From Candidatus Rokuibacteriota bacterium (lineage in GTDB: Bacteria; Methylomirabilota; Methylomirabilia; Rokubacteriales; CSP1-6), in NCBI GenBank assembly GCA_003220615.1, contig QHTB01000128.1:11839-75838 (forward strand): a stretch of 64,000 nt of DNA. Reading direction: 5' to 3'. The notes beneath the pieces are model-generated. The model saw only the letters and a list, made by a program, of their open reading frames with translations, searched no databases and had not been told where the DNA came from. Position numbers and translations under genes: made by a program. This document shows, one piece after another, positions 21,950 through 32,692 of the stretch (positions are counted from its first letter, which is position 1; each line of letters opens with the position of its first letter).

Positions 21950-23773
21950 GTGCGTCTGCACCGCCTGAAGCGCGTCTTCGTCGGCACACCGCTTCCCACG
22001 GCGCAGCAGCGCCACGAGCGCCTGGGCAAGGCTACCGCCCTGGCGACCTTCGCCTCCGACGCCCTGTCCTCCGTGGCCTACGCAACCGAAGAAATCCTGC
22101 TCGTTCTGGTGCTCGCGAGTGCCGTCGCGCTGAGCTATTCGTTGCCGATCGGCATTGCCATCGCGCTGCTCATCGCCATCGTCGTCAGCTCGTACCGCCA
22201 GACGATTCGCGCGTACCCGAAAGGCGGGGGCGCGTACATCGTCACCAAGGACAACCTCGGGGTCTTCCCGGGCCTGGTGGCCGCGGCCGCGCTGCTGATC
22301 GATTACGTCCTGACGGTCGCCGTGAGCGTTGCCGCCGGCGTCGCCGCCGTCACCTCGGCGCTGCCGGGCATGTTTCCCTATCGCGTCACCCTCTGTCTGC
22401 TCGCGGTCGGCGCCATCGCGACGGCGAACCTCCGGGGGATCCGTGAGTCCGGCAAGCTGTTCGCCGCACCGACGTATCTGTTCGTGGGAAGCCTCCTTGC
22501 TCTGATTGGCTACGGTGCAGTGGCCGCGATCTTCAATCTCATTCCGGAGGCTCCCTACCAGCCGCATCCGCCTGGTCTCGAAGGCATCGGAGTCTTCCTT
22601 CTTCTCCGTGCCTTCGCGTCGGGCTGCGCGGCACTGACCGGCGTGGAAGCGGTCTCGGACGGTGTGCCGGCGTTCAAGCCGCCCGAGGCGCACAACGCGC
22701 GGATCGTCCTCACCTGGCTCGGGGCCATCCTCATCACGCTCTTCCTCGGCATCACGTTCCTGGCGTACGACCTGGGCATCACGCCTCAGGCGCACGAAAC
22801 GGTGATCTCGCAGCTCGCGCGGCGACTCTTGGGGGGCGCCGGTCTCCTCTATTACGAGATCCAGGCCGTGACGATGCTCATCCTCCTGCTGGCCGCGAAC
22901 ACGTCGTTCGCCGACTTTCCTCGGCTGTCGTTCTTCCTCGCCCGGGACCGTTTCATCCCGCGCCAGTTCGGGACTCAGGGCGACCGGCTCGTGTTCTCGA
23001 ATGGCATCCTCATCCTGGGCGGACTCGCCGCGGTACTGCTGGTGATCTTCCGTGGCGACACCCACGCGCTCATCCCGCTCTATGCCGTCGGCGTGTTCAT
23101 CTCCTTCACGCTGTCGCAGGCCGCCATGGTTCGGCGCTGGTTCCGCGTGCGCGGTGATGGATGGACCTGGCGGGCCGGTCTCAACGGGTTGGGCGCATTC
23201 GTCACCGGCATCGTCATGCTGACCATCGCGGTGACGAAGTTCGTGCACGGCGCGTGGATCGTCGTGTTGCTCATTCCCACGCTGATCGCGGCCTTCATGA
23301 CGGTCCGCCGTCATTACGAAGAAGTGGCCGGTCAGCTCTCGCTGGAAGGGTTCGCGGCGCCGCCGATCACGAACTCGGTCCTCGTGCTGGTCGGTGATCT
23401 TCACCGCGGTGTCGTGAAGGCGGTCCAGTACGCGCAGTCGCTGTCACCGAGTGCCAAGGCCGTCTACGTCGAGATCGATCCCGAGCGGACGCACCGGCTG
23501 GAGGAGCGATGGGGCAAGTGGGGCATGGGCGCGCCGCTCATCGTCCTGACGTCGCCATACCGCTCGCTGCTCGGGCCGCTGCTCGAGTACATCGATCACC
23601 TGCAGGAAAAGGGTGGCGAAAACCACATCGTGACGATCGTGGTGCCGGAATTCATCCCGGCGCGCTGGTGGCAACAACTCCTCCACAACCAGACCGCGCT
23701 GTTGATCAAGGGACAGCTGCTCTTCAGGAAGAACGTCGTCGTGACCGACGTTCCCTACCACCTGAGGCACTGA
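21950..23773 (+). CDS. APC-superfamily amino-acid/polyamine permease with a ~200-aa cytoplasmic C-terminal domain
   Basis: N-terminus LGKATALATFASDALSSVAYATEEIL, 12 hydrophobic segments, and a soluble tail. GTG start. Confidence 0.8.
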   Translation: MRLHRLKRVFVGTPLPTAQQRHERLGKATALATFASDALSSVAYATEEILLVLVLASAVALSYSLPIGIAIALLIAIVVSSYRQTIRAYPKGGGAYIVTKDNLGVFPGLVAAAALLIDYVLTVAVSVAAGVAAVTSALPGMFPYRVTLCLLAVGAIATANLRGIRESGKLFAAPTYLFVGSLLALIGYGAVAAIFNLIPEAPYQPHPPGLEGIGVFLLLRAFASGCAALTGVEAVSDGVPAFKPPEAHNARIVLTWLGAILITLFLGITFLAYDLGITPQAHETVISQLARRLLGGAGLLYYEIQAVTMLILLLAANTSFADFPRLSFFLARDRFIPRQFGTQGDRLVFSNGILILGGLAAVLLVIFRGDTHALIPLYAVGVFISFTLSQAAMVRRWFRVRGDGWTWRAGLNGLGAFVTGIVMLTIAVTKFVHGAWIVVLLIPTLIAAFMTVRRHYEEVAGQLSLEGFAAPPITNSVLVLVGDLHRGVVKAVQYAQSLSPSAKAVYVEIDPERTHRLEERWGKWGMGAPLIVLTSPYRSLLGPLLEYIDHLQEKGGENHIVTIVVPEFIPARWWQQLLHNQTALLIKGQLLFRKNVVVTDVPYHLRH

Positions 23774-27602: not shown

Positions 27603-29519
27603 GTGCTGATCCAGGCCGAGGGCATCACGAAAGGCTTTGGTGGCCAGGACCTCTTCCAGGATCTCTCCTGGCAGATCACCGGGGGCCAGCGCGTCGGGCT
27701 CGTCGGTCCGAACGGTGCCGGCAAGACCACGCTGTGTCGCATCCTCGCCGGACTCGAGGAGCCAGACGCCGGGCGAGTGAGTCAGTCCCGCGGCGCGACG
27801 GTGGGCTACTTGCCGCAAGACGTCGCGGGCGCCGCCGCGACGTCAGTGCTCGGTGAAGCGCTGAGCGGCTTCGACGAGGTCTGGCGACTCGAGCGCGAGA
27901 TGGAGGAGGTGGCCGCCGCCCTGGCGGCGGCGCCGACCGAGCGACTGACCGAGCAGTACGGCGAGCTCCAGCATCGCTTCGAAGCCCTCGGCGGGTACCG
28001 GCTCGAAACGGAGGCTCGCGCGATCCTCAGTGGTCTCGGCTTCGCGGCGGCCGACCTGGCCCGCCCGCTCGCCGAGCTCTCGGGTGGTTGGCGGATGCGC
28101 GCTGCCCTCGCGCGCCTGCTCCTGTTGAGGCCCTCGCTCCTGCTCCTCGACGAGCCGACGAACCATCTGGATCTCGAGTCGCTGGCCTGGCTGGAGTCGT
28201 TCCTCGCCTCGTACGAGGGCAGCGTGGTGGTCGTGTCTCACGATCGCTACTTCCTGAACCGGATGGTCTCGTCGATCGCCGACCTCGGGCCGGGCGGCAT
28301 TACGCTGTATCCGGGTGACTACGACGATTACCTGGTCGAGCGCGAGGCGCGGCGCGAGCTCCTGGCCGCGCAGGCGCGCAATCAGGCGAAGCGCGTTGCC
28401 GAGATCGAGCGCTTCATCGAGCGCTTCCGGTATCAGGCCACCAAGGCTCGCCAGGTCCAGAGCCGCATCAAAATGCTGGAGCGGATCGACCGCGTCGAAG
28501 TGGAGGCGGAGTCGCGTCGGATCCACTTCTCGTTTCCGGAGCCGCCGCGGACGGGCCGCCGGGTGGCGTCGCTGCACGGCATCCACAAGGCGTACGGCGA
28601 CCTCGTGGTCTACGCTGGCGTCGATCTCGACATCGAGCGGGGCGAAAGGATTGCGCTCGTCGGGGTCAATGGGGCCGGCAAATCGACGATGCTGCGTATC
28701 CTCGCCGGCGTCCTGCCGTTCGACCGCGGCGAGCGGACGCTCGGCGCTCACGTGGTCGCGCACTACTATGCTCAGCACCAGCTCGACACCCTCGATCCCT
28801 CGCGCAGCGTGCTGGAGGAGCTGGAGGTGGTGGCACCCGACGCCGCCCGCACGCGGCTACGCACGATCCTCGGATCGTTCCTGTTCTCGGGCGACACCGT
28901 CGACAAGAAGATCGCGGTGCTCTCCGGTGGGGAGAAGGCGCGGCTGGCCCTGGCCAAGATGCTGACGCGGCCGGCCGCGCTGCTGTGTCTCGACGAGCCC
29001 ACGAACCACCTCGACCTGGTTTCCCGCGAGGTTCTCGAGGCCGCGCTCGCCGGGTTTCCGGGGACCATCGTGTTCATCTCTCACGACCGGTACTTCATCA
29101 ACCGCATCGCCACGAGCGTCGTCGAGGTCGCCGAGGGCCGGTTGGTCACCTATCTCGGTGACTATGACGACTACCTCGCGGCCAAGGCGAGGGTGACCGA
29201 CGCGTCAGCCGCCGGCGATCCGGCCACTTCACGCACACCGACGGCGGACCGGATGCCAAACGCTCGCTCGCGCCCGAAGCCGGGCGTGAGTCGCGAAGTG
29301 CGTGAGCTCCGGCGCCGCCTCGACGAGGTCGAGCGCGAGATCCATGTGCTGGAAGAGCGGCTGACTGGCCTCGGCCGAGCGCTGGGAGATCCGGCGCTGT
29401 ACACCGACGGCGAGCGGGCCCGCGCTGTCGCGCGCGAGCGCAAAGAGGCCGAAGAGCAGGTCACCTGGCTCATGCGGGAGTGGGAGGCGCTCTCCACTGA
29501 GATCGCGACTCATGAATGA
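27603..29519 (+). CDS. ABC-F family ATPase (Uup/YheS-like, two NBDs plus a C-terminal coiled coil)
   Basis: Two Walker A motifs (GPNGAGKTT, GVNGAGKST), two LSGG signatures, no TM segments, and a coiled-coil tail. Confidence 0.9.
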   Translation: MLIQAEGITKGFGGQDLFQDLSWQITGGQRVGLVGPNGAGKTTLCRILAGLEEPDAGRVSQSRGATVGYLPQDVAGAAATSVLGEALSGFDEVWRLEREMEEVAAALAAAPTERLTEQYGELQHRFEALGGYRLETEARAILSGLGFAAADLARPLAELSGGWRMRAALARLLLLRPSLLLLDEPTNHLDLESLAWLESFLASYEGSVVVVSHDRYFLNRMVSSIADLGPGGITLYPGDYDDYLVEREARRELLAAQARNQAKRVAEIERFIERFRYQATKARQVQSRIKMLERIDRVEVEAESRRIHFSFPEPPRTGRRVASLHGIHKAYGDLVVYAGVDLDIERGERIALVGVNGAGKSTMLRILAGVLPFDRGERTLGAHVVAHYYAQHQLDTLDPSRSVLEELEVVAPDAARTRLRTILGSFLFSGDTVDKKIAVLSGGEKARLALAKMLTRPAALLCLDEPTNHLDLVSREVLEAALAGFPGTIVFISHDRYFINRIATSVVEVAEGRLVTYLGDYDDYLAAKARVTDASAAGDPATSRTPTADRMPNARSRPKPGVSREVRELRRRLDEVEREIHVLEERLTGLGRALGDPALYTDGERARAVARERKEAEEQVTWLMREWEALSTEIATHE

Positions 29520-29833
29520 GGTTTCGTGTGAATGAGTTTTACGCGCCCGTCGATCCTGGTGTGCTGCGTCGTGAGCGGGCGCGCGCCCGGGAGCTTCGCG
29601 AGAGTGGCTGGTGGAAGCGGAAGCTGTCGACGGGCATCTGCTACTACTGCCGACGGCGAGTCGGTACGCGCGCCCTCACCATGGATCACATCGTTCCGCT
29701 CGGGCGCGGCGGTCGTAGCGTGCGCGGCAACGTGGTTCCCGCCTGCAAGGACTGCAACAACCGCAAGCAATCGTCGTTGCCAGTCGAGTGGCAGGATTAT
29801 CTGACCTCGCTCGGCAGCGTCTCCGAGGAGTGA
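29516..29833 (+). CDS. Small HNH endonuclease
   Basis: CYYCRRRV...MDHIVPLGRGGRSVRGNVVPACKDCNNRK (HNH motif with Cys pairs). The ATG overlaps the ABC-F stop (ATGA). Confidence 0.8.
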   Translation: MRFRVNEFYAPVDPGVLRRERARARELRESGWWKRKLSTGICYYCRRRVGTRALTMDHIVPLGRGGRSVRGNVVPACKDCNNRKQSSLPVEWQDYLTSLGSVSEE

Positions 29834-29938
29834 CACCGAGCCGTATCGAACGTTGGACGTTGACGCTCCTTCGTCGTCCGCGTTGAATGGCCACGCTCGC
29901 GAGCGCGTGCCCCATTCACCTACACACGGAGGAGTCGC

Positions 29939-30256
29939 ATGATTCACCGAGCCGTTGTCCTCGCCGCTCTGACTGTTGTGCCGTTCGTTCCCGTGGCCGG
30001 CGCCGAGACCGAGCGGGCCCCGTCCGGCCGCCATCAGGAGAAGGCCGCGGTCACCGATCATCCCGCGATCAACATCAACACCGCCGACGTGAAGTCGTTG
30101 ATGACGCTCGACGGCGTGGGGCGCAAGGTCGCCGAAAAAATCGTCGAGTACCGGGAAGCGCACGGTCCGTTCAAGAAGCCTGACGACGTCCGCAAGGTGG
30201 ACGGCATCGGCGGCGGACTGTGGGAACGCAATCGGGAACGGATCGTCGTGAAGTAA
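29939..30256 (+). CDS. comEA: ComEA-like helix-hairpin-helix DNA-binding protein with signal peptide
   Basis: Signal-like N-terminus, then ININTADVKSLMTLDGVGRKVAEKIVEYREAHGPFKKPDDVRKVDGIG. Confidence 0.8.
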   Translation: MIHRAVVLAALTVVPFVPVAGAETERAPSGRHQEKAAVTDHPAININTADVKSLMTLDGVGRKVAEKIVEYREAHGPFKKPDDVRKVDGIGGGLWERNRERIVVK

Positions 30257-30309
30257 AGCGCACGGACTTTTGCTTGGGCGACCGCGCAGGCTGCGGTAGG
30301 ATGTGGGCA

Positions 30310-30646
30310 AATCGGTCGGAGCGTCAACAGCGTTCCAGCAGCGTCCCCGCCGACAATTCCGCCGGCGGTTGAGCGTGACCGAGCCTGGGGCCGGGAGTCG
30401 GCATCCGGTTCGAGGGAGTGGGACTGGGCCCGCGTGGCGCCCTTGCCGAGATAGGAGGTGATCCAGCCGATGTGTAACCCTACGGTGATCTGTGAGGTGG
30501 AGGCCTCCTAGGCAACGACCACGCTAGCTCTGGGTGGCGAGCCTGGGAGAACCAGGCACCACCGGCCCCGACGACCCCGCCTCACCAGCGGGGCGACGCG
30601 TAGCACTGAAAAGAGCGTCGCAGCCCTCGTCGGGGCTTCTTTTTTT
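30310..30646 (+). ncRNA. Candidate structured non-coding RNA of unknown class (5' end is a guess)
   Basis: No credible ORF. Several strong local hairpins, e.g. GGTGG..CCTGG-GAGAA-CCAGG..CCACC at 30533-30563 and the GGAGGCCTCC palindrome at 30499-30508. A weak promoter-like TTGGGC-N17-TAGGAT at 30274-30302 and a terminator at 30622-30646. There is no + strand gene downstream. Confidence 0.4.
30622..30646 (+). terminator. Intrinsic terminator (+ strand)
   Basis: AGCCC-TCGTCG-GGGCT followed by TCTTTTTTT. Confidence 0.6.
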
Positions 30647-30661
30647 CAATGACGGCGAAGT

Positions 30662-30701
30662 GGCGATAACAGAACGGCCCGCCGGGAGCTCCGGCGGGCC
30701 G
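30662..30701 (-). terminator. Terminator hairpin downstream of cold-shock gene 1
   Basis: An 11-bp perfect stem CGGCCCGCCGG / CCGGCGGGCCG (30675-30701), followed on the minus strand by TTCTGTTAT. Confidence 0.45.
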
Positions 30702-30736
30702 GCGAAGTGGTCCGCGATGGATGGAAGCTGCGGACG

Positions 30737-30937
30737 TTAGACCTTTCGGACGTTGGACGCCTGCAGCCCCTTGGGCCCCTTGGTGACCTCGAATTCCACC
30801 TTGTCGCCCTCGCTCAGGCTCTTGAAGCCCTGGGCCTGAATTGCGCTGTAGTGAACGAACACGTCCTCGCCGCCCTCGACCTGGATAAAGCCGTATCCCT
30901 TCGCGTCGTTAAACCACTTCACCGTGCCTTGTGCCAT
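30737..30937 (-). CDS. Cold-shock protein (CspA family), copy 1
   Basis: [34 protein letters not shown]... with RNP1 (KGYGFI) and RNP2 (VFVHY). Confidence 0.95.
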
Positions 30938-31028
30938 ACTCCCTTTCCCTCTTTGGACGGAGCGGGCCTGATCGCTCCGGTAATCCCGGCCCCCATGGCC
31001 GGTGGCGTCCCGATCACGTTCCGGGACA

Positions 31029-31066
31029 ACAAAAAAGCGCCGCAGGACCCTCGGTCCTCGCGACGC
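31029..31066 (-). terminator. Terminator-like hairpin plus U-tract inside the leader of cold-shock gene 1
   Basis: Minus strand GCGTCGCGAGGACC-GAG-GGTCCTGCGGCGC (13 bp with one bulge) followed by TTTTTTGTTGT. It lies ~65-100 nt downstream of the predicted TSS and ~100 nt upstream of the ATG. Confidence 0.5.
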
Positions 31067-31138
31067 TGGTTCCTCAGACCCGAGCGACTCCGACTGCTAA
31101 AAGCATCCCGATCAGATGCACCATCTGGAACGCAGAAG

Positions 31139-31168
31139 ACTTTACAATGGTCAAAAAAACACTGTCAA
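31139..31168 (-). promoter_or_regulatory. Sigma-70-type promoter candidate for cold-shock gene 1
   Basis: Minus strand TTGACA (31168-31163), N18, TAAAGT (31144-31139). This implies a leader of about 190 nt. Confidence 0.55.
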
Positions 31169-31204
31169 GCTCGTTTGCGCTCGGTGGGGCTGGCGGTGGA
31201 CCGA

Positions 31205-31232
31205 GCCCGGGCCCCGTGTTGGGGGCCCGGGC
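31205..31232 (-). terminator. GC-rich hairpin downstream of cold-shock gene 2
   Basis: GCCCGGGCCCC / GGGGCCCGGGC forms an 11-bp stem 25 nt after the stop. No U-tract. Confidence 0.4.
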
Positions 31233-31256
31233 GGAACTCTTCGGGGGGCGGAACCC

Positions 31257-31457
31257 TCAGACTTTTCTGACGTTAGCGGCCTGGAGACCCTTGGGGCCGC
31301 GCGTGACGTCGAACTCGACGCTGTCGCCCTCGGCCAGGGTTTTGAAGCCCTGGGCCTGGATCGCAGTGTAGTGAACGAACACGTCCTCGCCGCCGTCCTG
31401 CGTGATGAAACCGTACCCCTTGGCCTCGTTGAACCACTTCACTCGTCCGTTTGCCAT
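31257..31457 (-). CDS. Cold-shock protein (CspA family), copy 2
   Basis: [34 protein letters not shown]... A close paralogue of copy 1. Confidence 0.95.
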
Positions 31458-31541
31458 GCTTCCGTACCTCGTACCTTTCTTCGGGGCCGCGCCCCTTGAT
31501 GCACCCCGCCTCTATGCGGGGGCGCCTTCCGCGGCGGAAGG

Positions 31542-31579
31542 CAAACAAAAACGCCGCGCGGACTGGATCTCGCGCGGCG
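31542..31579 (-). terminator. Terminator-like hairpin plus U-tract inside the leader of cold-shock gene 2 (or terminator of the upstream gene)
   Basis: Minus strand CGCCGCGCG-AGATCCAGTC-CGCGCGGCG (9 bp perfect) followed by TTTTTGTTTG. It ends ~95 nt upstream of the ATG. Confidence 0.5.
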
Positions 31580-31634
31580 TGTCTTTCGGTCTTTCCGGCT
31601 TCACCGACATCCGTCTGAACCAGAACCGAGAAAA

Positions 31635-31664
31635 AGACTACACGAGCCGCGCAAGCGGCGTCAA
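31635..31664 (-). promoter_or_regulatory. Sigma-70-type promoter candidate for cold-shock gene 2
   Basis: Minus strand TTGACG (31664-31659), N18, TAGTCT (31640-31635). The -35 overlaps the stop codon of the upstream gene. Confidence 0.35.
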
Positions 31665-32692
31665 TCGCCTTCTACCCTTCGGGTAACAGGCTGGGACCCG
31701 TTTCGCGTCCCGAGCCAGCCAGGGATGGCCATGGAGAATCGCCCAGCAGTACCTCCCGCGACGACCACGTGAACCTCGTCGGCCGACGGGAACTTGGGCA
31801 CCAGCGTGTCGGCATGCGGCGGTGTCCGCCCGAATCTCAAGTTCGTACCCTCGCCGTGGCCATCGTCGGGAACGAGCTCGGCATAGGGCCGGCGGATGGT
31901 GTCGTGAAGATGGCGCTGCAGATCGCTTCGCGACCAGCCGTCGTCGGCGAAGGTGCGCGCATGCTCGGGACCCACCACGAGCATGGTGTGTGAGTAGAGC
32001 GGAAAGTGCTTGCTGTTCCAGAGGCCGGCCATGGACCACCCGAGCGACCCGGCGAGCTCACGCGCCGTCCTGCTCGAATGATCGGAGATGCCGTGAGGCG
32101 CCTCACCGGCGAAGAGCGTGACGGCGCTGGCGTCGGCAGAGAGACCTCGCCCGACGTGATAGGGCGGCCAGGGACTTGCCTCCTCGTGCTCCGCGATGCA
32201 ATACGTGTAGCGTCCGGGATGACCGAACGTCGACATCGATGTCTCCCCGGGGCGCGCTCCGCCGATGTTGATCATGAGCAGTCGTAGCGCGCGACCGATC
32301 GTGGCGTTGGCGCGATATCCGGGCCCGAACACGCCGAAGCCGCTGTTGAGGCCGATGCGCGTACGCACCGGGCCGTTCACGACAATGAGCGGCGTCGAGA
32401 AGTGCGTCGACGTCGCCACGCCGTGGAGGTTGAACGCCGGTTCGCACGCGCACTCGGCGACGGCGAGCACGACCGGCAAGTACTCCGGGCGGCAACCGGC
32501 CATGACCGCGTTGATCGCGACCTTCTCCACGGTGACGCGCCCGTAATTGGGCGGCAGCTCGCCGATGAGCACTTCGGGAGCTCGGCGCGTGGCCTGGAGC
32601 ATGCGCTCGACGCGTGCTCGGGTGGGTGGGACGACGGGGAGTCCGTCGGTGACACCGCGCTCGAAGAACAGCTCGAACTCGTCGGTCGTCAT
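31661..32692 (-). CDS. Conserved-looking hypothetical protein (family not recognised)
   Basis: A 343-aa non-repetitive globular-looking sequence from an internal Met (MTTDEFELFFERGVTDGLPVVPPT...) with normal codon bias. No motif I can name. Confidence 0.55.
   Translation of the reverse strand: MTTDEFELFFERGVTDGLPVVPPTRARVERMLQATRRAPEVLIGELPPNYGRVTVEKVAINAVMAGCRPEYLPVVLAVAECACEPAFNLHGVATSTHFSTPLIVVNGPVRTRIGLNSGFGVFGPGYRANATIGRALRLLMINIGGARPGETSMSTFGHPGRYTYCIAEHEEASPWPPYHVGRGLSADASAVTLFAGEAPHGISDHSSRTARELAGSLGWSMAGLWNSKHFPLYSHTMLVVGPEHARTFADDGWSRSDLQRHLHDTIRRPYAELVPDDGHGEGTNLRFGRTPPHADTLVPKFPSADEVHVVVAGGTAGRFSMAIPGWLGTRNGSQPVTRRVEGD

What the first reader, a model, noticed from the sequence alone, without database searches (positions are those of the whole stretch)
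30453..30511. 17-nt perfect complement of the 16S rRNA 3' terminus fused to the AUG of a 13-codon mini-ORF
Seen in sequence: AGGAGGTGATCCAGCCG (30453-30469) is immediately followed by ATG TGT AAC CCT ACG GTG ATC TGT GAG GTG GAG GCC TCC TAG (MCNPTVICEVEAS). Established knowledge: the 17-mer equals the core of the universal 16S reverse primer AAGGAGGTGATCCAGCCGCA. That is the reverse complement of the conserved 16S 3' end ...CGGCTGGATCACCTCCT... The next conserved 16S block, CCTACGGT, also appears (30479-30486) at nearly the right spacing. However, the helix-45 pairing partner is not preserved, so this is not a functional rRNA piece. A 17-nt identity by chance in 64 kb is negligible. Three inferences are possible.
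- On the + strand it is an extreme Shine-Dalgarno sequence that would clamp the anti-SD tail, acting as a ribosome trap, an SD sponge or an autoregulatory leader.
- On the minus strand it is a mimic of the 16S 3' end.
- It is a short relic of an rrn operon end.
Basis: partly seen in the sequence, partly recalled or inferred. Interest (0 to 1): 0.6.

Follow-up and report, generated by a model that had tools for sequence, protein, structure and literature searches.

The report
Ribosome-docking small RNA with mini-gene
The 17-base "anti-16S" stretch is the oversized ribosome-binding site of a conserved, single-copy, roughly 340-base RNA gene carrying a 13-codon reading frame; it is built like the little-known rreB small mRNAs and is distantly related to the actinobacterial sRNA Ms_IGR-5, and what it does for the cell is unknown.

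Summary
AGGAGGTGATCCAGCCG (30453-30469) is the exact complement of this genome's own 16S 3' end. It is the longest such match in the genome outside the 16S gene. ATG follows at 30470 and TAG at 30509-30511.

It is not an rrn relic and not a minus-strand mimic. It lies inside a + strand RNA gene of about 340 nt, with a conserved -10 at 30297-30302 and a terminator near 30622-30646. The gene is single-copy and present in 39 of 41 relatives. A model of it matched 107 of 151 genomes sampled from the phylum and 18 of 31 sampled Binatia.

All 169 homologues examined keep the mini-ORF. Each has a start codon 1-7 nt after ..TCC, 12-15 codons, and a stop (TAG, TAA or TGA) exactly 18 nt after an almost invariant UGUGAGGUGG.

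Rfam gives only sub-threshold, full-length hits to Ms_IGR-5. Actinobacterial Ms_IGR-5 loci share the extended SD, the frame and a 3' helix.

The closest functional precedent is rreB/rreR of alpha-proteobacteria (Hahn et al. 2017): a 17-nt SD, a 14-18 codon sORF, tight 30S binding and weak translation. No sequence homology to rreB was detectable.

Function is unknown and no expression data could be obtained. This scan reached the same reading on other genomes (e1-2855079, e1-3361073).

The parts
30274..30302 (+). Promoter-like element: TTGGGC (-35-like, 30274-30279), a 17-nt spacer, then TAGGAT (-10-like, 30297-30302). The inferred transcription start is near 30309.
   Evidence: Read from the sequence. 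TAGGAT/TACGAT is nearly invariant in 56 homologues (T15, A16, A19 of alignment A1). The simple promoter scan did not call it, because the -35 matches only 4 of 6. The start site is inferred, not measured.
30309..30646 (+). The whole stand-alone RNA, about 340 nt. It is the 'long form' of the family.
   Evidence: The intergenic region is 72-87% identical over 30264-30646 in 39 of 41 relatives. RNAalifold on 56 sequences gives 69 pairs, 37 of them with compensatory changes. There is one match per genome with covariance model R1.
30309..30443 (+). 5' structured domain of about 135 nt. The long form has it; mycobacterial Ms_IGR-5 loci have no room for one.
   Evidence: Helices with strong covariation, for example P1 at columns 50-55/123-128 (GC<->AU in 15 sequences, CG<->UA in 25). 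It is conserved in Binatia, Thermodesulfobacteriota and Methylomirabilales homologues. In mycobacterial loci the upstream gene ends about 60 nt before the SD.
30449..30452 (+). Predicted single-stranded 'seed' (AGAU) immediately 5' of the SD.
   Evidence: Unpaired probability is 1.0 in the partition function of the full RNA. In relatives the sequence is GAAA/AGAAA, fully complementary to the 16S terminal UUUCU. It is analogous to the 5-nt single-stranded seed proposed for rreB (PMC5711450).
30453..30469 (+). Extended Shine-Dalgarno: 17 nt perfectly complementary to the genome's own 16S 3' end (CGGCUGGAUCACCUCCU).
   Evidence: Predicted duplex energy is -27.2 kcal/mol with the single-stranded 16S tail, against about -12 to -14 for a canonical SD. 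The part conserved across the family is (G)AAAGGAGGUG(A/G)UCCAG.
30470..30511 (+). 13-codon sORF, MCNPTVICEVEAS plus TAG.
   Evidence: The start codon (ATG/GTG/TTG), the reading frame (indels only in multiples of 3) and a stop (TAG/TAA/TGA) exactly 18 nt after TGT are kept in 149 of 149 distinct homologues. The same holds in 20 of 20 homologues found by the covariance model without the sequence pattern.
30491..30509 (+). 3' strand of the 'SD lock': UGUGAGGUGG (almost invariant and SD-like, ending 8 nt before the stop) plus GCCUCCU (an anti-SD mimic). It pairs with the extended SD.
   Evidence: RNAalifold helix at columns 232-246/289-302, with only one-sided changes (U-G/U-A, A-U/G-U). The local hairpin energy is -28.7 kcal/mol. 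UGUGAGGUGG is invariant in 39 BLAST-found relatives and deviates in only 2 of 20 model-found ones.
30533..30563 (+). Middle hairpin: GGUGG (30533-30537) pairs with CCACC (30559-30563), enclosing GCCUGG...CCAGGC.
   Evidence: columns 347-351/377-381 and 357-361/370-374. There is one compensatory change (L122: GGUAG/CUACC).
30564..30646 (+). 3' domain and intrinsic terminator. A long helix (GGCCCCGACGA with UCGUCGGGGCU) encloses two hairpins, the first with an invariant UCACC loop (30582-30586). A U-tract follows.
   Evidence: The terminator scan finds a stem at 30622-30637 followed by TCTTTTTTTC. The helix at columns 382-395/479-490 has many compensatory changes.

Best explanation
The 17-mer is the ribosome-binding site of a stand-alone, + strand, roughly 340-nt structured RNA that carries a conserved 13-codon reading frame. 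In kind it is a small mRNA with an extended Shine-Dalgarno, like rreB/rreR of alpha-proteobacteria. By descent it is a long-form, distant relative of the actinobacterial sRNA Ms_IGR-5.

Proposed mechanism (inferred):
1. In the free RNA the SD is locked in a hairpin. The 3' strand of the lock lies inside the sORF (UGUGAGGUGG...CCUCCU) and imitates the 16S tail.
2. A few unpaired bases 5' of the SD (AGAU here, GAAA in relatives) let the 3' end of 16S rRNA nucleate pairing and strand-invade. This gives a duplex of 17-21 bp, about twice as stable as a normal SD helix, which docks the RNA on the 30S subunit.
3. Because this duplex runs right up to the start codon, it must partly melt before the AUG can reach the P site. 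Initiation should therefore be slow, and the RNA mostly 30S-bound.
4. When the sORF is translated, the ribosome unzips the lock.
5. The invariant GAGGUGG, 8 nt before the stop codon, could re-pair with the anti-SD as the ribosome terminates.

What selection preserves is the act of ribosome loading, transit and release on this RNA (start, frame and stop are kept) together with RNA-level sequence, rather than a particular peptide. The cellular output is unknown: it could be a ribosome-linked regulatory RNA, translation-coupled turnover, or a 13-residue peptide.
For: **Shown here**
- The 17-mer is an exact complement of the genome's own 16S tail and the unique longest such site in the genome.
- The whole intergenic region is conserved in 39 of 41 relatives.
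- The RNA is structured: 37 of 69 predicted pairs show compensatory changes.
- A + strand terminator is present and the -10 is conserved.
- The gene is single-copy. The covariance model R1 matched 107 of 151 genomes sampled from the phylum (84 of 93 in the same family) and 18 of 31 sampled Binatia.
- The sORF's start, frame and stop are kept in 149 of 149 and 20 of 20 homologues, with all three stop codons used.
- Variability shows no third-codon-position excess. The conserved half is therefore constrained as RNA.
- The SD-lock helix is predicted in the consensus fold. Its energy (-28.7 kcal/mol) is about equal to that of the SD:16S-tail duplex (-27.2), and 4 nt 5' of the SD are unpaired.
- The A/G variant in GGUG(A/G)UCC faces a U both in 16S and in the internal strand. 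The 16S tails are identical in six genomes.
- Rfam Ms_IGR-5 aligns full length to this RNA and to homologues from other phyla at 22.5-39.7 bits, E down to 1.5e-5. Actinobacterial loci share the SD, the frame (..TCEVAAR stop) and the sORF-to-3' helix with compensatory changes.

**From the literature**
- rreB has a 17-nt perfect SD and a 14-codon sORF. It co-sediments with 30S and is weakly translated because of the extended SD. Its stability depends on the start codon (PMC5711450).
- Ms_IGR-5 homologues are expressed in Streptomyces (PMC8079986, PMC8780764) and carry ribosome footprints in M. abscessus and M. smegmatis (PMC4974804).
- rreB-type and alpha-proteobacterial 25-codon sORFs found in metagenomes show the same lock, for example UCACCUC or UGGAUCCUCGCCUCU inside the sORF pairing with the SD.
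Against: - There are no expression or ribosome data for this organism.
- The SD-lock helix shows only one-sided changes and no double compensatory change. It is compatible with pairing but not proven by covariation.
- The window's RNA scores only 22.5 bits against Ms_IGR-5, where the Rfam cut-off is 45.
- The covariance model R1 gives no significant match to rreB or rreR loci (12 bits, E 0.53). The link to rreB is therefore by architecture, not by demonstrable homology.
- Part of the homologue set was collected with a pattern that fixed TGTGAGGTGG, which inflates the apparent invariance of that motif. The BLAST-found and model-found sets confirm it independently.
- Five of the 17 paired 16S bases (CGGCU) belong to helix 45 and may not be accessible in a mature 30S subunit. 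Beyond ..CCAG the complementarity is not conserved in the family.
Confidence: 0.7

Rival explanations
1. It is simply a very small protein-coding gene. The 13-residue peptide (M-C-x-P-T-V-I-C-E-V-V-A-S) is the functional product, the long SD only drives its expression, and the flanking RNA is an untranslated region.
For: Start, frame and stop are conserved in all homologues, and C-E-V plus three residues plus stop is kept across phyla. Hahn et al. also regard RreB and RreR as conserved small proteins (PMC5711450).
Against: The N-terminal half varies in length and sequence. The conserved half shows no synonymous third-position variation, and it coincides with the strand that pairs with the SD. 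About 300 nt of flanking RNA are conserved with covarying helices, far more than a UTR needs. For rreB the extended SD lowers translation rather than raising it (PMC5711450). No recurrent partner genes lie nearby.
Confidence: 0.15
2. It is a bulk ribosome or anti-SD sponge: an abundant RNA that titrates 30S subunits, or shields the 16S 3' tail, to damp translation under stress (hibernation-like).
For: The predicted duplex with the 16S tail is about twice as stable as a canonical SD. rreB is found mainly on 30S subunits (PMC5711450). Neighbours in this lineage are translation- or cold-related: an ABC-F ATPase, two csp genes, and a DEAD-box helicase in relatives.
Against: A single-copy gene would have to be expressed at ribosome-like levels. 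rreB overexpression had no growth effect, and rreB is far less abundant than ribosomes (PMC5711450). A sponge would not need a conserved start, frame and stop.
Confidence: 0.08
3. It is a cis-acting leader-peptide attenuator controlling a downstream gene through the terminator at 30622-30646.
For: The layout looks like an attenuator: a short ORF, alternative GGUGG/CCACC pairings and an intrinsic terminator.
Against: The next genes downstream are on the opposite strand (csp at 30737-30937). In relatives the downstream gene is mostly convergent, and it differs between lineages.
Confidence: 0.03
4. It is a degraded remnant of an rrn operon end, or a minus-strand RNA that mimics the 16S 3' end.
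For: There is 17-nt identity to the 16S terminus on the minus strand, plus a nearby CCCTACGG block.
Against: Identity stops after 17 nt. The second block is not conserved. No SSU rRNA model matches here. The element is conserved with its flanks in more than 150 genomes of several phyla. All the conserved signals (-10, sORF start and stop, terminator) are on the + strand. The csp terminator on the minus strand ends at 30675, upstream of the element in the minus-strand direction of transcription.
Confidence: 0.02

Closest known systems
rreB / rreR small mRNAs of alpha-proteobacteria (Hahn et al., RNA Biol 2017, PMC5711450)
   Same: Both have a region of at least 16-17 nt perfectly complementary to the 16S 3' end that abuts or overlaps the start codon. 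Both carry a conserved sORF of 13-18 codons. Both are stand-alone small transcripts with their own promoter and terminator. In both, the SD is mostly buried in a hairpin with a few 5' bases free. The Binatia members of the present family have exactly the rreB layout, GAAAGGAGGUGAUCCA-GUG. In rreB-type loci recovered here, identified by the adjacent tRNA-Gly, the SD is locked by UCACCUC inside the sORF.
   Different: No detectable sequence homology beyond the SD: R1 scores 12 bits, E 0.53 on rreB-type loci. The peptides are different (VSYTKRCHLAGIAR against MCxPTVICEVVAS). The RNA here is about twice as long (about 340 nt against 165 nt), with an extra 5' domain. The SD-to-start spacing is 3-4 nt longer in this window. 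The family occurs in different phyla. 30S binding and weak translation are shown only for rreB.
Rfam RF02471, Ms_IGR-5 (actinobacterial sRNA, function unknown)
   Same: The only Rfam family that hits, and it aligns full length (model positions 1-184) to 30444-30645 +. Actinobacterial loci share AAGGAGGUG(A/G)UCC, a 12-13 codon sORF in the same frame ending TGT GAG GTG xxx xxx xxx stop, a helix between the sORF GGUGG and a downstream CACC segment, and the ...CGGCCCCGA terminator stem. Homologues from other phyla score 33-40 bits.
   Different: The score is below the curated cut-off (22.5 against 45 bits). The organism is a Rokubacterium, not an actinobacterium. The long form adds a 5' domain of about 135 nt and a CCUCCU anti-SD mimic that the actinobacterial form lacks. 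In the three papers I found that mention Ms_IGR-5, its sORF and extended SD are not described.
Dual-function sRNAs and leader-peptide RNAs (for example SgrS/SgrT; rnTrpL/peTrpL, PMC6614838)
   Same: A short ORF embedded in a structured, terminator-ended small RNA, where ribosome passage can remodel the RNA.
   Different: No downstream regulated gene, no known base-pairing target, and an SD far longer than in those RNAs.

Membership tests
rre-type small mRNA with extended SD (rreB/rreR) | At least 16 nt of perfect complementarity to the organism's own 16S 3' end at the ribosome-binding site | tested here: met
   17 nt exact against the genome's own 16S gene. It is the unique longest such site in the genome.
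rre-type small mRNA with extended SD (rreB/rreR) | A conserved sORF (14-18 codons in the described cases) that starts at the end of the complementarity region | tested here: met
   ATG lies directly after the 17-mer. In relatives a GTG overlaps the last complementary base. The sORF is 12-15 codons and is conserved in 169 of 169 homologues.
rre-type small mRNA with extended SD (rreB/rreR) | A stand-alone small transcript with its own promoter and terminator | tested here: inconclusive
   A conserved -10-like TAGGAT and an intrinsic terminator are present, and the flanking genes are convergent or unrelated.
rre-type small mRNA with extended SD (rreB/rreR) | SD largely sequestered in a conserved hairpin, with a short single-stranded 5' seed | tested here: met
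   Consensus helix at columns 232-246/289-302. Bases 30449-30452 are unpaired with probability 1.0. This rests on structure prediction only.
rre-type small mRNA with extended SD (rreB/rreR) | Strong 30S binding, weak translation, start-codon-dependent stability | not testable with these tools
   These are experimental properties, shown for rreB only (PMC5711450).
rre-type small mRNA with extended SD (rreB/rreR) | Sequence homology to rreB or rreR | tested here: not met
   R1 on rreB-type, rreR-type and alpha-proteobacterial 25-codon loci gives a best score of 12-13 bits, E 0.3-0.5. The peptides are unrelated.
Rfam RF02471 Ms_IGR-5 | Score at or above the curated gathering threshold (45 bits) | tested here: not met
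   22.5 bits, E 0.005 in the 651-nt search and 0.011 genome-wide.
Rfam RF02471 Ms_IGR-5 | Shared architecture with bona fide members (SD, sORF frame, long-range helix, terminator) | tested here: met
   with full-length model alignment. Homologues from intermediate phyla score 33-40 bits.
16S rRNA fragment / rrn relic | Similarity to 16S or rrn flanks extending well beyond the 17-mer | tested here: not met
   After the 17-mer, 16S reads CAGGTTCCCCTACGGCTA while the window reads ATGTGTAACCCTACGGTGA. There is no SSU match at this site.
tmRNA | tRNA-like domain and tag reading frame recognised by ARAGORN or Rfam | tested here: not met
   ARAGORN finds nothing in 29000-32000. Rfam gives no tmRNA hit.

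The most novel reading that the evidence does not exclude
rreB/rreR, actinobacterial Ms_IGR-5 and this long-form RNA of Rokubacteria and Binatia are all versions of one ancient and widespread class of ribosome-docking RNAs. In this class a self-locked, 16S-tail-complementary SD and a tiny ORF, which carries its own anti-SD mimic and a GAGGU(G/C) motif 8 nt before the stop, form a translation-operated switch. The switch would report on, or act on, the free 30S pool or the 16S 3' end. The extra 5' domain of the long form would be a sensor that gates it.
Probability: 0.15. Interest if true: 0.8.

Novelty: new variant of a known kind. Interest (0 to 1): 0.5.

Why it matters
SD helices this long are thought to impede the step from initiation to elongation. 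Yet this arrangement is kept, single-copy, in most Rokubacteriales and many Binatia, and in shorter form in many Actinomycetota. A similar layout occurs in alpha-proteobacteria.

The analysis ties three things together through a shared architecture: an uncharacterised Rfam sRNA (Ms_IGR-5), the experimentally studied rreB, and a new long form of about 340 nt. The shared parts are an extended SD, an sORF carrying an internal anti-SD mimic, and a fixed SD-like motif before the stop codon.

This gives a concrete, testable model for a class of RNAs that sit on 30S subunits. It also points to culturable hosts where the function could be worked out: M. smegmatis and Streptomyces for Ms_IGR-5, and Bradyrhizobium for rreB.

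Tried and rejected
- **Rfam.** At gathering thresholds nothing matches this site. At E up to 10 only Ms_IGR-5 plus noise appears.
- **tmRNA or tRNA.** None found.
- **Plasmid search.** A search with the window's element found nothing. A search with the 16S-tail complement recovered two alpha-proteobacterial extended-SD loci. They have longer ORFs and no similarity beyond the SD.
- **Conserved neighbours across phyla.** None found, so guilt by association gives no function.
- **Hairpin enclosing the start codon.** The hairpin seen in actinobacteria ((U)CC..GG(A) around the start codon) is not conserved in the long form. I read this.
- **Pseudoknot.** A possible pseudoknot between the invariant UCACC loop (30582-30586) and GGUGA of the SD or the sORF has no covariation support. 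Only CACC/GGUG is invariant. I left it out of the model.
- **Covariation with 16S.** The A/G variation in GGUG(A/G)UCC might have tracked a change in 16S. It does not: the 16S tails are identical in six genomes.
- **Second rre-like gene.** A 15-nt complement of the 16S tail on contig C21 is inside a coding region, not an rre-like gene.
- **Phylum-level sampling around the Binatia and Thermodesulfobacteriota genomes.** This gave only 1 of 40 extra hits, so outside Binatia the RNA is sporadic in that phylum.
- **Model R1 structure.** R1 was built on a truncated region, and its automatic consensus structure is poor (23 pairs). I used it only as a homology detector, not as structural evidence.
Full report
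**Observation.** AGGAGGTGATCCAGCCG lies at 30453-30469, ATG at 30470, and a 13-codon frame (MCNPTVICEVEAS) ends with TAG at 30509-30511.

The genome's own 16S gene, on contig C97, ends ...CCTGCGGCTGGATCACCTCCTTTCT. The 17-mer is therefore a perfect complement of this organism's own 16S tail. I scanned both strands of the 5.86-Mb assembly against the 24-nt complement of that tail. Only the 16S gene itself matches for longer. This site is next at 17 nt, and the following match is a 15-mer inside a coding region.

The second '16S block' (CCTACGGT) is present, but it is not conserved in relatives beyond (A)CGGTGA.

**What surrounds it.** The element sits in a 480-nt gap between two convergent genes. 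Upstream is a ComEA-like helix-hairpin-helix gene (29939-30256, +; Pfam HHH_3). Downstream is a cold-shock gene (30737-30937, -; Pfam CSD).

A + strand intrinsic terminator lies at 30622-30646. The csp gene has its own minus-strand terminator at 30701-30675.

The whole stretch 30264-30646 is 72-87% identical in 39 of 41 related genomes. That is far more conserved than an ordinary spacer. A -10-like TAGGAT (30297-30302) is nearly invariant, and TTGGGC lies 17 nt upstream of it. Together these imply a + strand RNA of about 340 nt starting near 30309. The start site is inferred.

RNAalifold on 56 homologues predicts 69 base pairs, 37 of them with compensatory changes, so this is a structured RNA gene. 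Earlier notes in this scan call the organism a Rokubacterium. The record titles of near-identical loci agree with that (Candidatus Rokuibacteriota / Methylomirabilota).

**Distribution.** A covariance model of the SD-sORF-middle region (R1) finds exactly one copy per positive genome.
- It matched 107 of 151 genomes sampled from the phylum: 84 of 93 in the same family, 10 of 11 and 11 of 12 in two other families.
- It matched none of 18 in one family of 2.5-3-Mb genomes that are about 99% complete.
- It matched 18 of 31 sampled Binatia.
- It matched only 1 of 40 other genomes sampled from that larger phylum.

Most are Actinomycetota: Mycobacterium, Streptomyces, Kitasatospora, Pseudonocardia, Brachybacterium and others. 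The rest include Rokubacteria, Binatia, Thermodesulfobacteriota, Nitrospiria, Terriglobia and 'delta-proteobacterial' MAGs.

**The mini-ORF is real in the evolutionary sense.** All 149 distinct homologues have an in-frame ATG, GTG or TTG 1-7 nt after ..TCC. All have 12-15 codons. All have a stop codon exactly 18 nt after TGT, that is C-E-V-x-x-x-stop. TAG, TAA and TGA all occur, and length differences come only in multiples of three.

The scan pattern fixed TGTGAGGTGG, so I also examined 20 homologues found only by the covariance model. All 20 have the same ORF, and only two deviate in the decamer (TGTAAGGTGG and CGTGAGGTGG).

Variability shows no excess at third codon positions, and the N-terminal half varies freely. 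So start, frame and stop are selected, but the conserved half is conserved as RNA.

**Relation to known RNAs.** Rfam's only match is Ms_IGR-5 (RF02471). It aligns full length at 30444-30645 + but below threshold (22.5 bits against 45). Homologues from other non-actinobacterial phyla score 33-40 bits.

Actinobacterial loci show the same AAGGAGGUG(A/G)UCC and a TTG/ATG/GTG sORF in the same frame (for example MIDLWTCEVAAR). They also have a helix between the sORF's GGUGG plus four bases and a downstream ...CACC segment. That helix changes compensatorily: GGUGGCUGC/GCAGUCACC in Mycobacterium, GGUGGCUCG/CGAGCUGCC in Brachybacterium, and GGUGGUCGCG/CGCGACCACC in Myceligenerans. I conclude the window's RNA is a distant long-form relative of Ms_IGR-5 with an extra 5' domain of about 135 nt. 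In mycobacteria the upstream gene ends about 60 nt before the SD.

The literature reports Ms_IGR-5 as expressed in Streptomyces (PMC8079986, PMC8780764). It also reports ribosome footprints on it in M. abscessus and M. smegmatis (PMC4974804). None of these papers gives it a function.

**The closest functional precedent is rreB** (PMC5711450). It is a 165-nt small mRNA of Bradyrhizobiaceae with a 17-nt region perfectly complementary to the 16S 3' end that includes the first base of a GTG start. It encodes a 14-residue sORF and co-sediments with 30S subunits. It is translated weakly because of the extended SD, and it is stabilised when the start codon is removed. rreR, with 18 codons, is the counterpart in Rhodobacterales. 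The authors reported such genes only in alpha-proteobacteria, and their function is unknown.

Several Binatia members of the present family have exactly the rreB layout, GAAAGGAGGUGAUCCA-GUG.

A metagenome scan with that 19-mer recovered several groups of sORFs:
- rreB-type sORFs (VSYTKRCHLAGIAR, next to tRNA-Gly as the paper describes);
- rreR-type 18-codon sORFs;
- a 20-25-codon alpha-proteobacterial type (VSHCLSPRSPASVSWILASxEVRxA);
- members of the present family.

In the rreB type, the 25-codon type and this window, the SD is predicted to pair with an anti-SD mimic inside the sORF: UCACCUC, UGGAUCCUCGCCUCU and GCCUCCU respectively. Many of them place GAGGU(G/C) so that the peptide ends E-V-x-x-x-stop.

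The covariance model nevertheless finds no significant similarity to rreB or rreR loci. The relation to rre genes is therefore one of architecture, possibly very distant homology, and not demonstrable membership.

**Mechanism (inferred).**
- *The lock.* The consensus fold pairs AGGAGGU.(A/G).CCA.C with G.UGG.U.(A/G)CCUCCU. Only one-sided changes are seen, so covariation neither proves nor contradicts this helix.
- *A balanced competition.* The local lock is worth -28.7 kcal/mol. The duplex with the single-stranded 16S tail is worth -27.2, or -40.1 if the 3' strand of helix 45 were also available. A canonical SD is worth about -12 to -14.
- *A seed for invasion.* Four bases 5' of the SD (30449-30452) are unpaired. 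In relatives this flank (GAAA) extends complementarity to the very 3' end of 16S.
- *Mimicry of the tail.* The 16S tails of six genomes carrying A-type or G-type SDs are identical. The frequent G in GGUGGUCC is therefore a G.U wobble, and the internal lock strand also carries a U at that position.
- *Predicted behaviour.* By analogy with rreB, the 16S tail invades from the seed and docks the RNA on 30S. The part of the duplex next to the start codon must melt before initiation. Translation of the sORF then unzips the lock. The invariant GAGGUGG 8 nt before the stop could re-engage the anti-SD at termination.

The last two steps are hypotheses. The physiological output is unknown.

**Rejected readings.**
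- *Relic of an rrn operon.* Similarity ends after 17 nt, and the element is conserved within a structured RNA across phyla.
- *Minus-strand mimic.* All conserved signals are on the + strand.
- *Leader or attenuator.* The downstream genes are convergent and differ between lineages.
- *Bulk ribosome sponge.* This is unlikely given the rreB overexpression data.
- *Functional peptide.* A purely peptide-based function is possible but fits the RNA-level conservation poorly.

**Standing.** This is a new variant of a known kind. The principle (an extended-SD small mRNA) and a related family (Ms_IGR-5) are published. I did not find the following described in the papers I could search: the long form in Rokubacteria and Binatia, the cross-phylum conservation of the sORF, and the shared lock architecture.

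Other agents of this scan reached the Ms_IGR-5 reading independently on other genomes (e1-2855079, e1-3361073). The link to rreB is added here.

Noticed in passing
window 27603-29519 (+): An ABC-F type ATPase (two ABC_tran domains, ABC_tran_Xtn and ABC_tran_CTD; Uup/EttA-like, a ribosome-associated family) lies two genes upstream of the RNA. A homologous ABC-F gene neighbours the RNA in about 10 loci, including the Terriglobia locus L091, where it is divergent. DEAD-box helicase and csp genes are the usual downstream neighbours in Rokubacteria.
   Followed up: partly
window 30737-30937 and 31257-31457 (-): Two tandem cold-shock-domain genes sit directly downstream, convergent with the RNA gene. 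A good sigma-70-like promoter (TTGACA, 18 nt, TAAAGT) lies at 31168-31139.
   Followed up: no
L192, L203, L245 and about 40 other metagenome loci (L189-L308): This is a large family of 20-25-codon sORFs behind GAAAGGAGGTGATCCA-GTG, of the form VSHCLSPRSPASVSWILASxEVRxA. The 'WILAS' codons (UGG AUC CUC GCC UCU) are a near copy of the 16S tail UGGAUCACCUCCU and fold back on the SD. They are probably the unnamed alpha-proteobacterial rre genes mentioned by Hahn et al.
   Followed up: partly
L195, L264, L213, L307 (metagenome loci): These are intermediate forms between the actinobacterial and long-form sORFs (..TASEVAAS..WTGEVIVT..SGEVAEA). They have AGT or GGT in place of TGT, and weak but full-length R1 matches of 21-30 bits.
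   Followed up: partly
L140, L142, L159 (genome contigs): RNA sequences identical in type to the Rokubacteria family (MCNPTVICEVVAS-type sORF) occur on short contigs of MAGs labelled Gemmatimonadales, Binatia and Candidatus Acidoferrum. These are probably mis-binned Rokubacteria contigs.
   Followed up: no
L037, L119, L188: Some homologues carry an insertion, about 90 nt in L037, in the middle domain between the sORF stop and the GGGUGG hairpin. That region therefore tolerates large expansions.
   Followed up: no
G000 contig C21, minus strand 23663-23677: AAGGAGGTGATCCAG, 15 nt complementary to the 16S tail, lies inside the 3' end of a coding region (..HKEVIQWFAECTSEF..). It may serve as a very strong internal SD for the next gene. 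It is not an rre-like sORF.
   Followed up: partly
phylum sample, family f7 (G042-G047 and others): One family of small genomes (2.5-3.0 Mb, about 99% complete) in the same class shows no match to the RNA model in 18 of 18 genomes, while sister families have it in about 90%.
   Followed up: no
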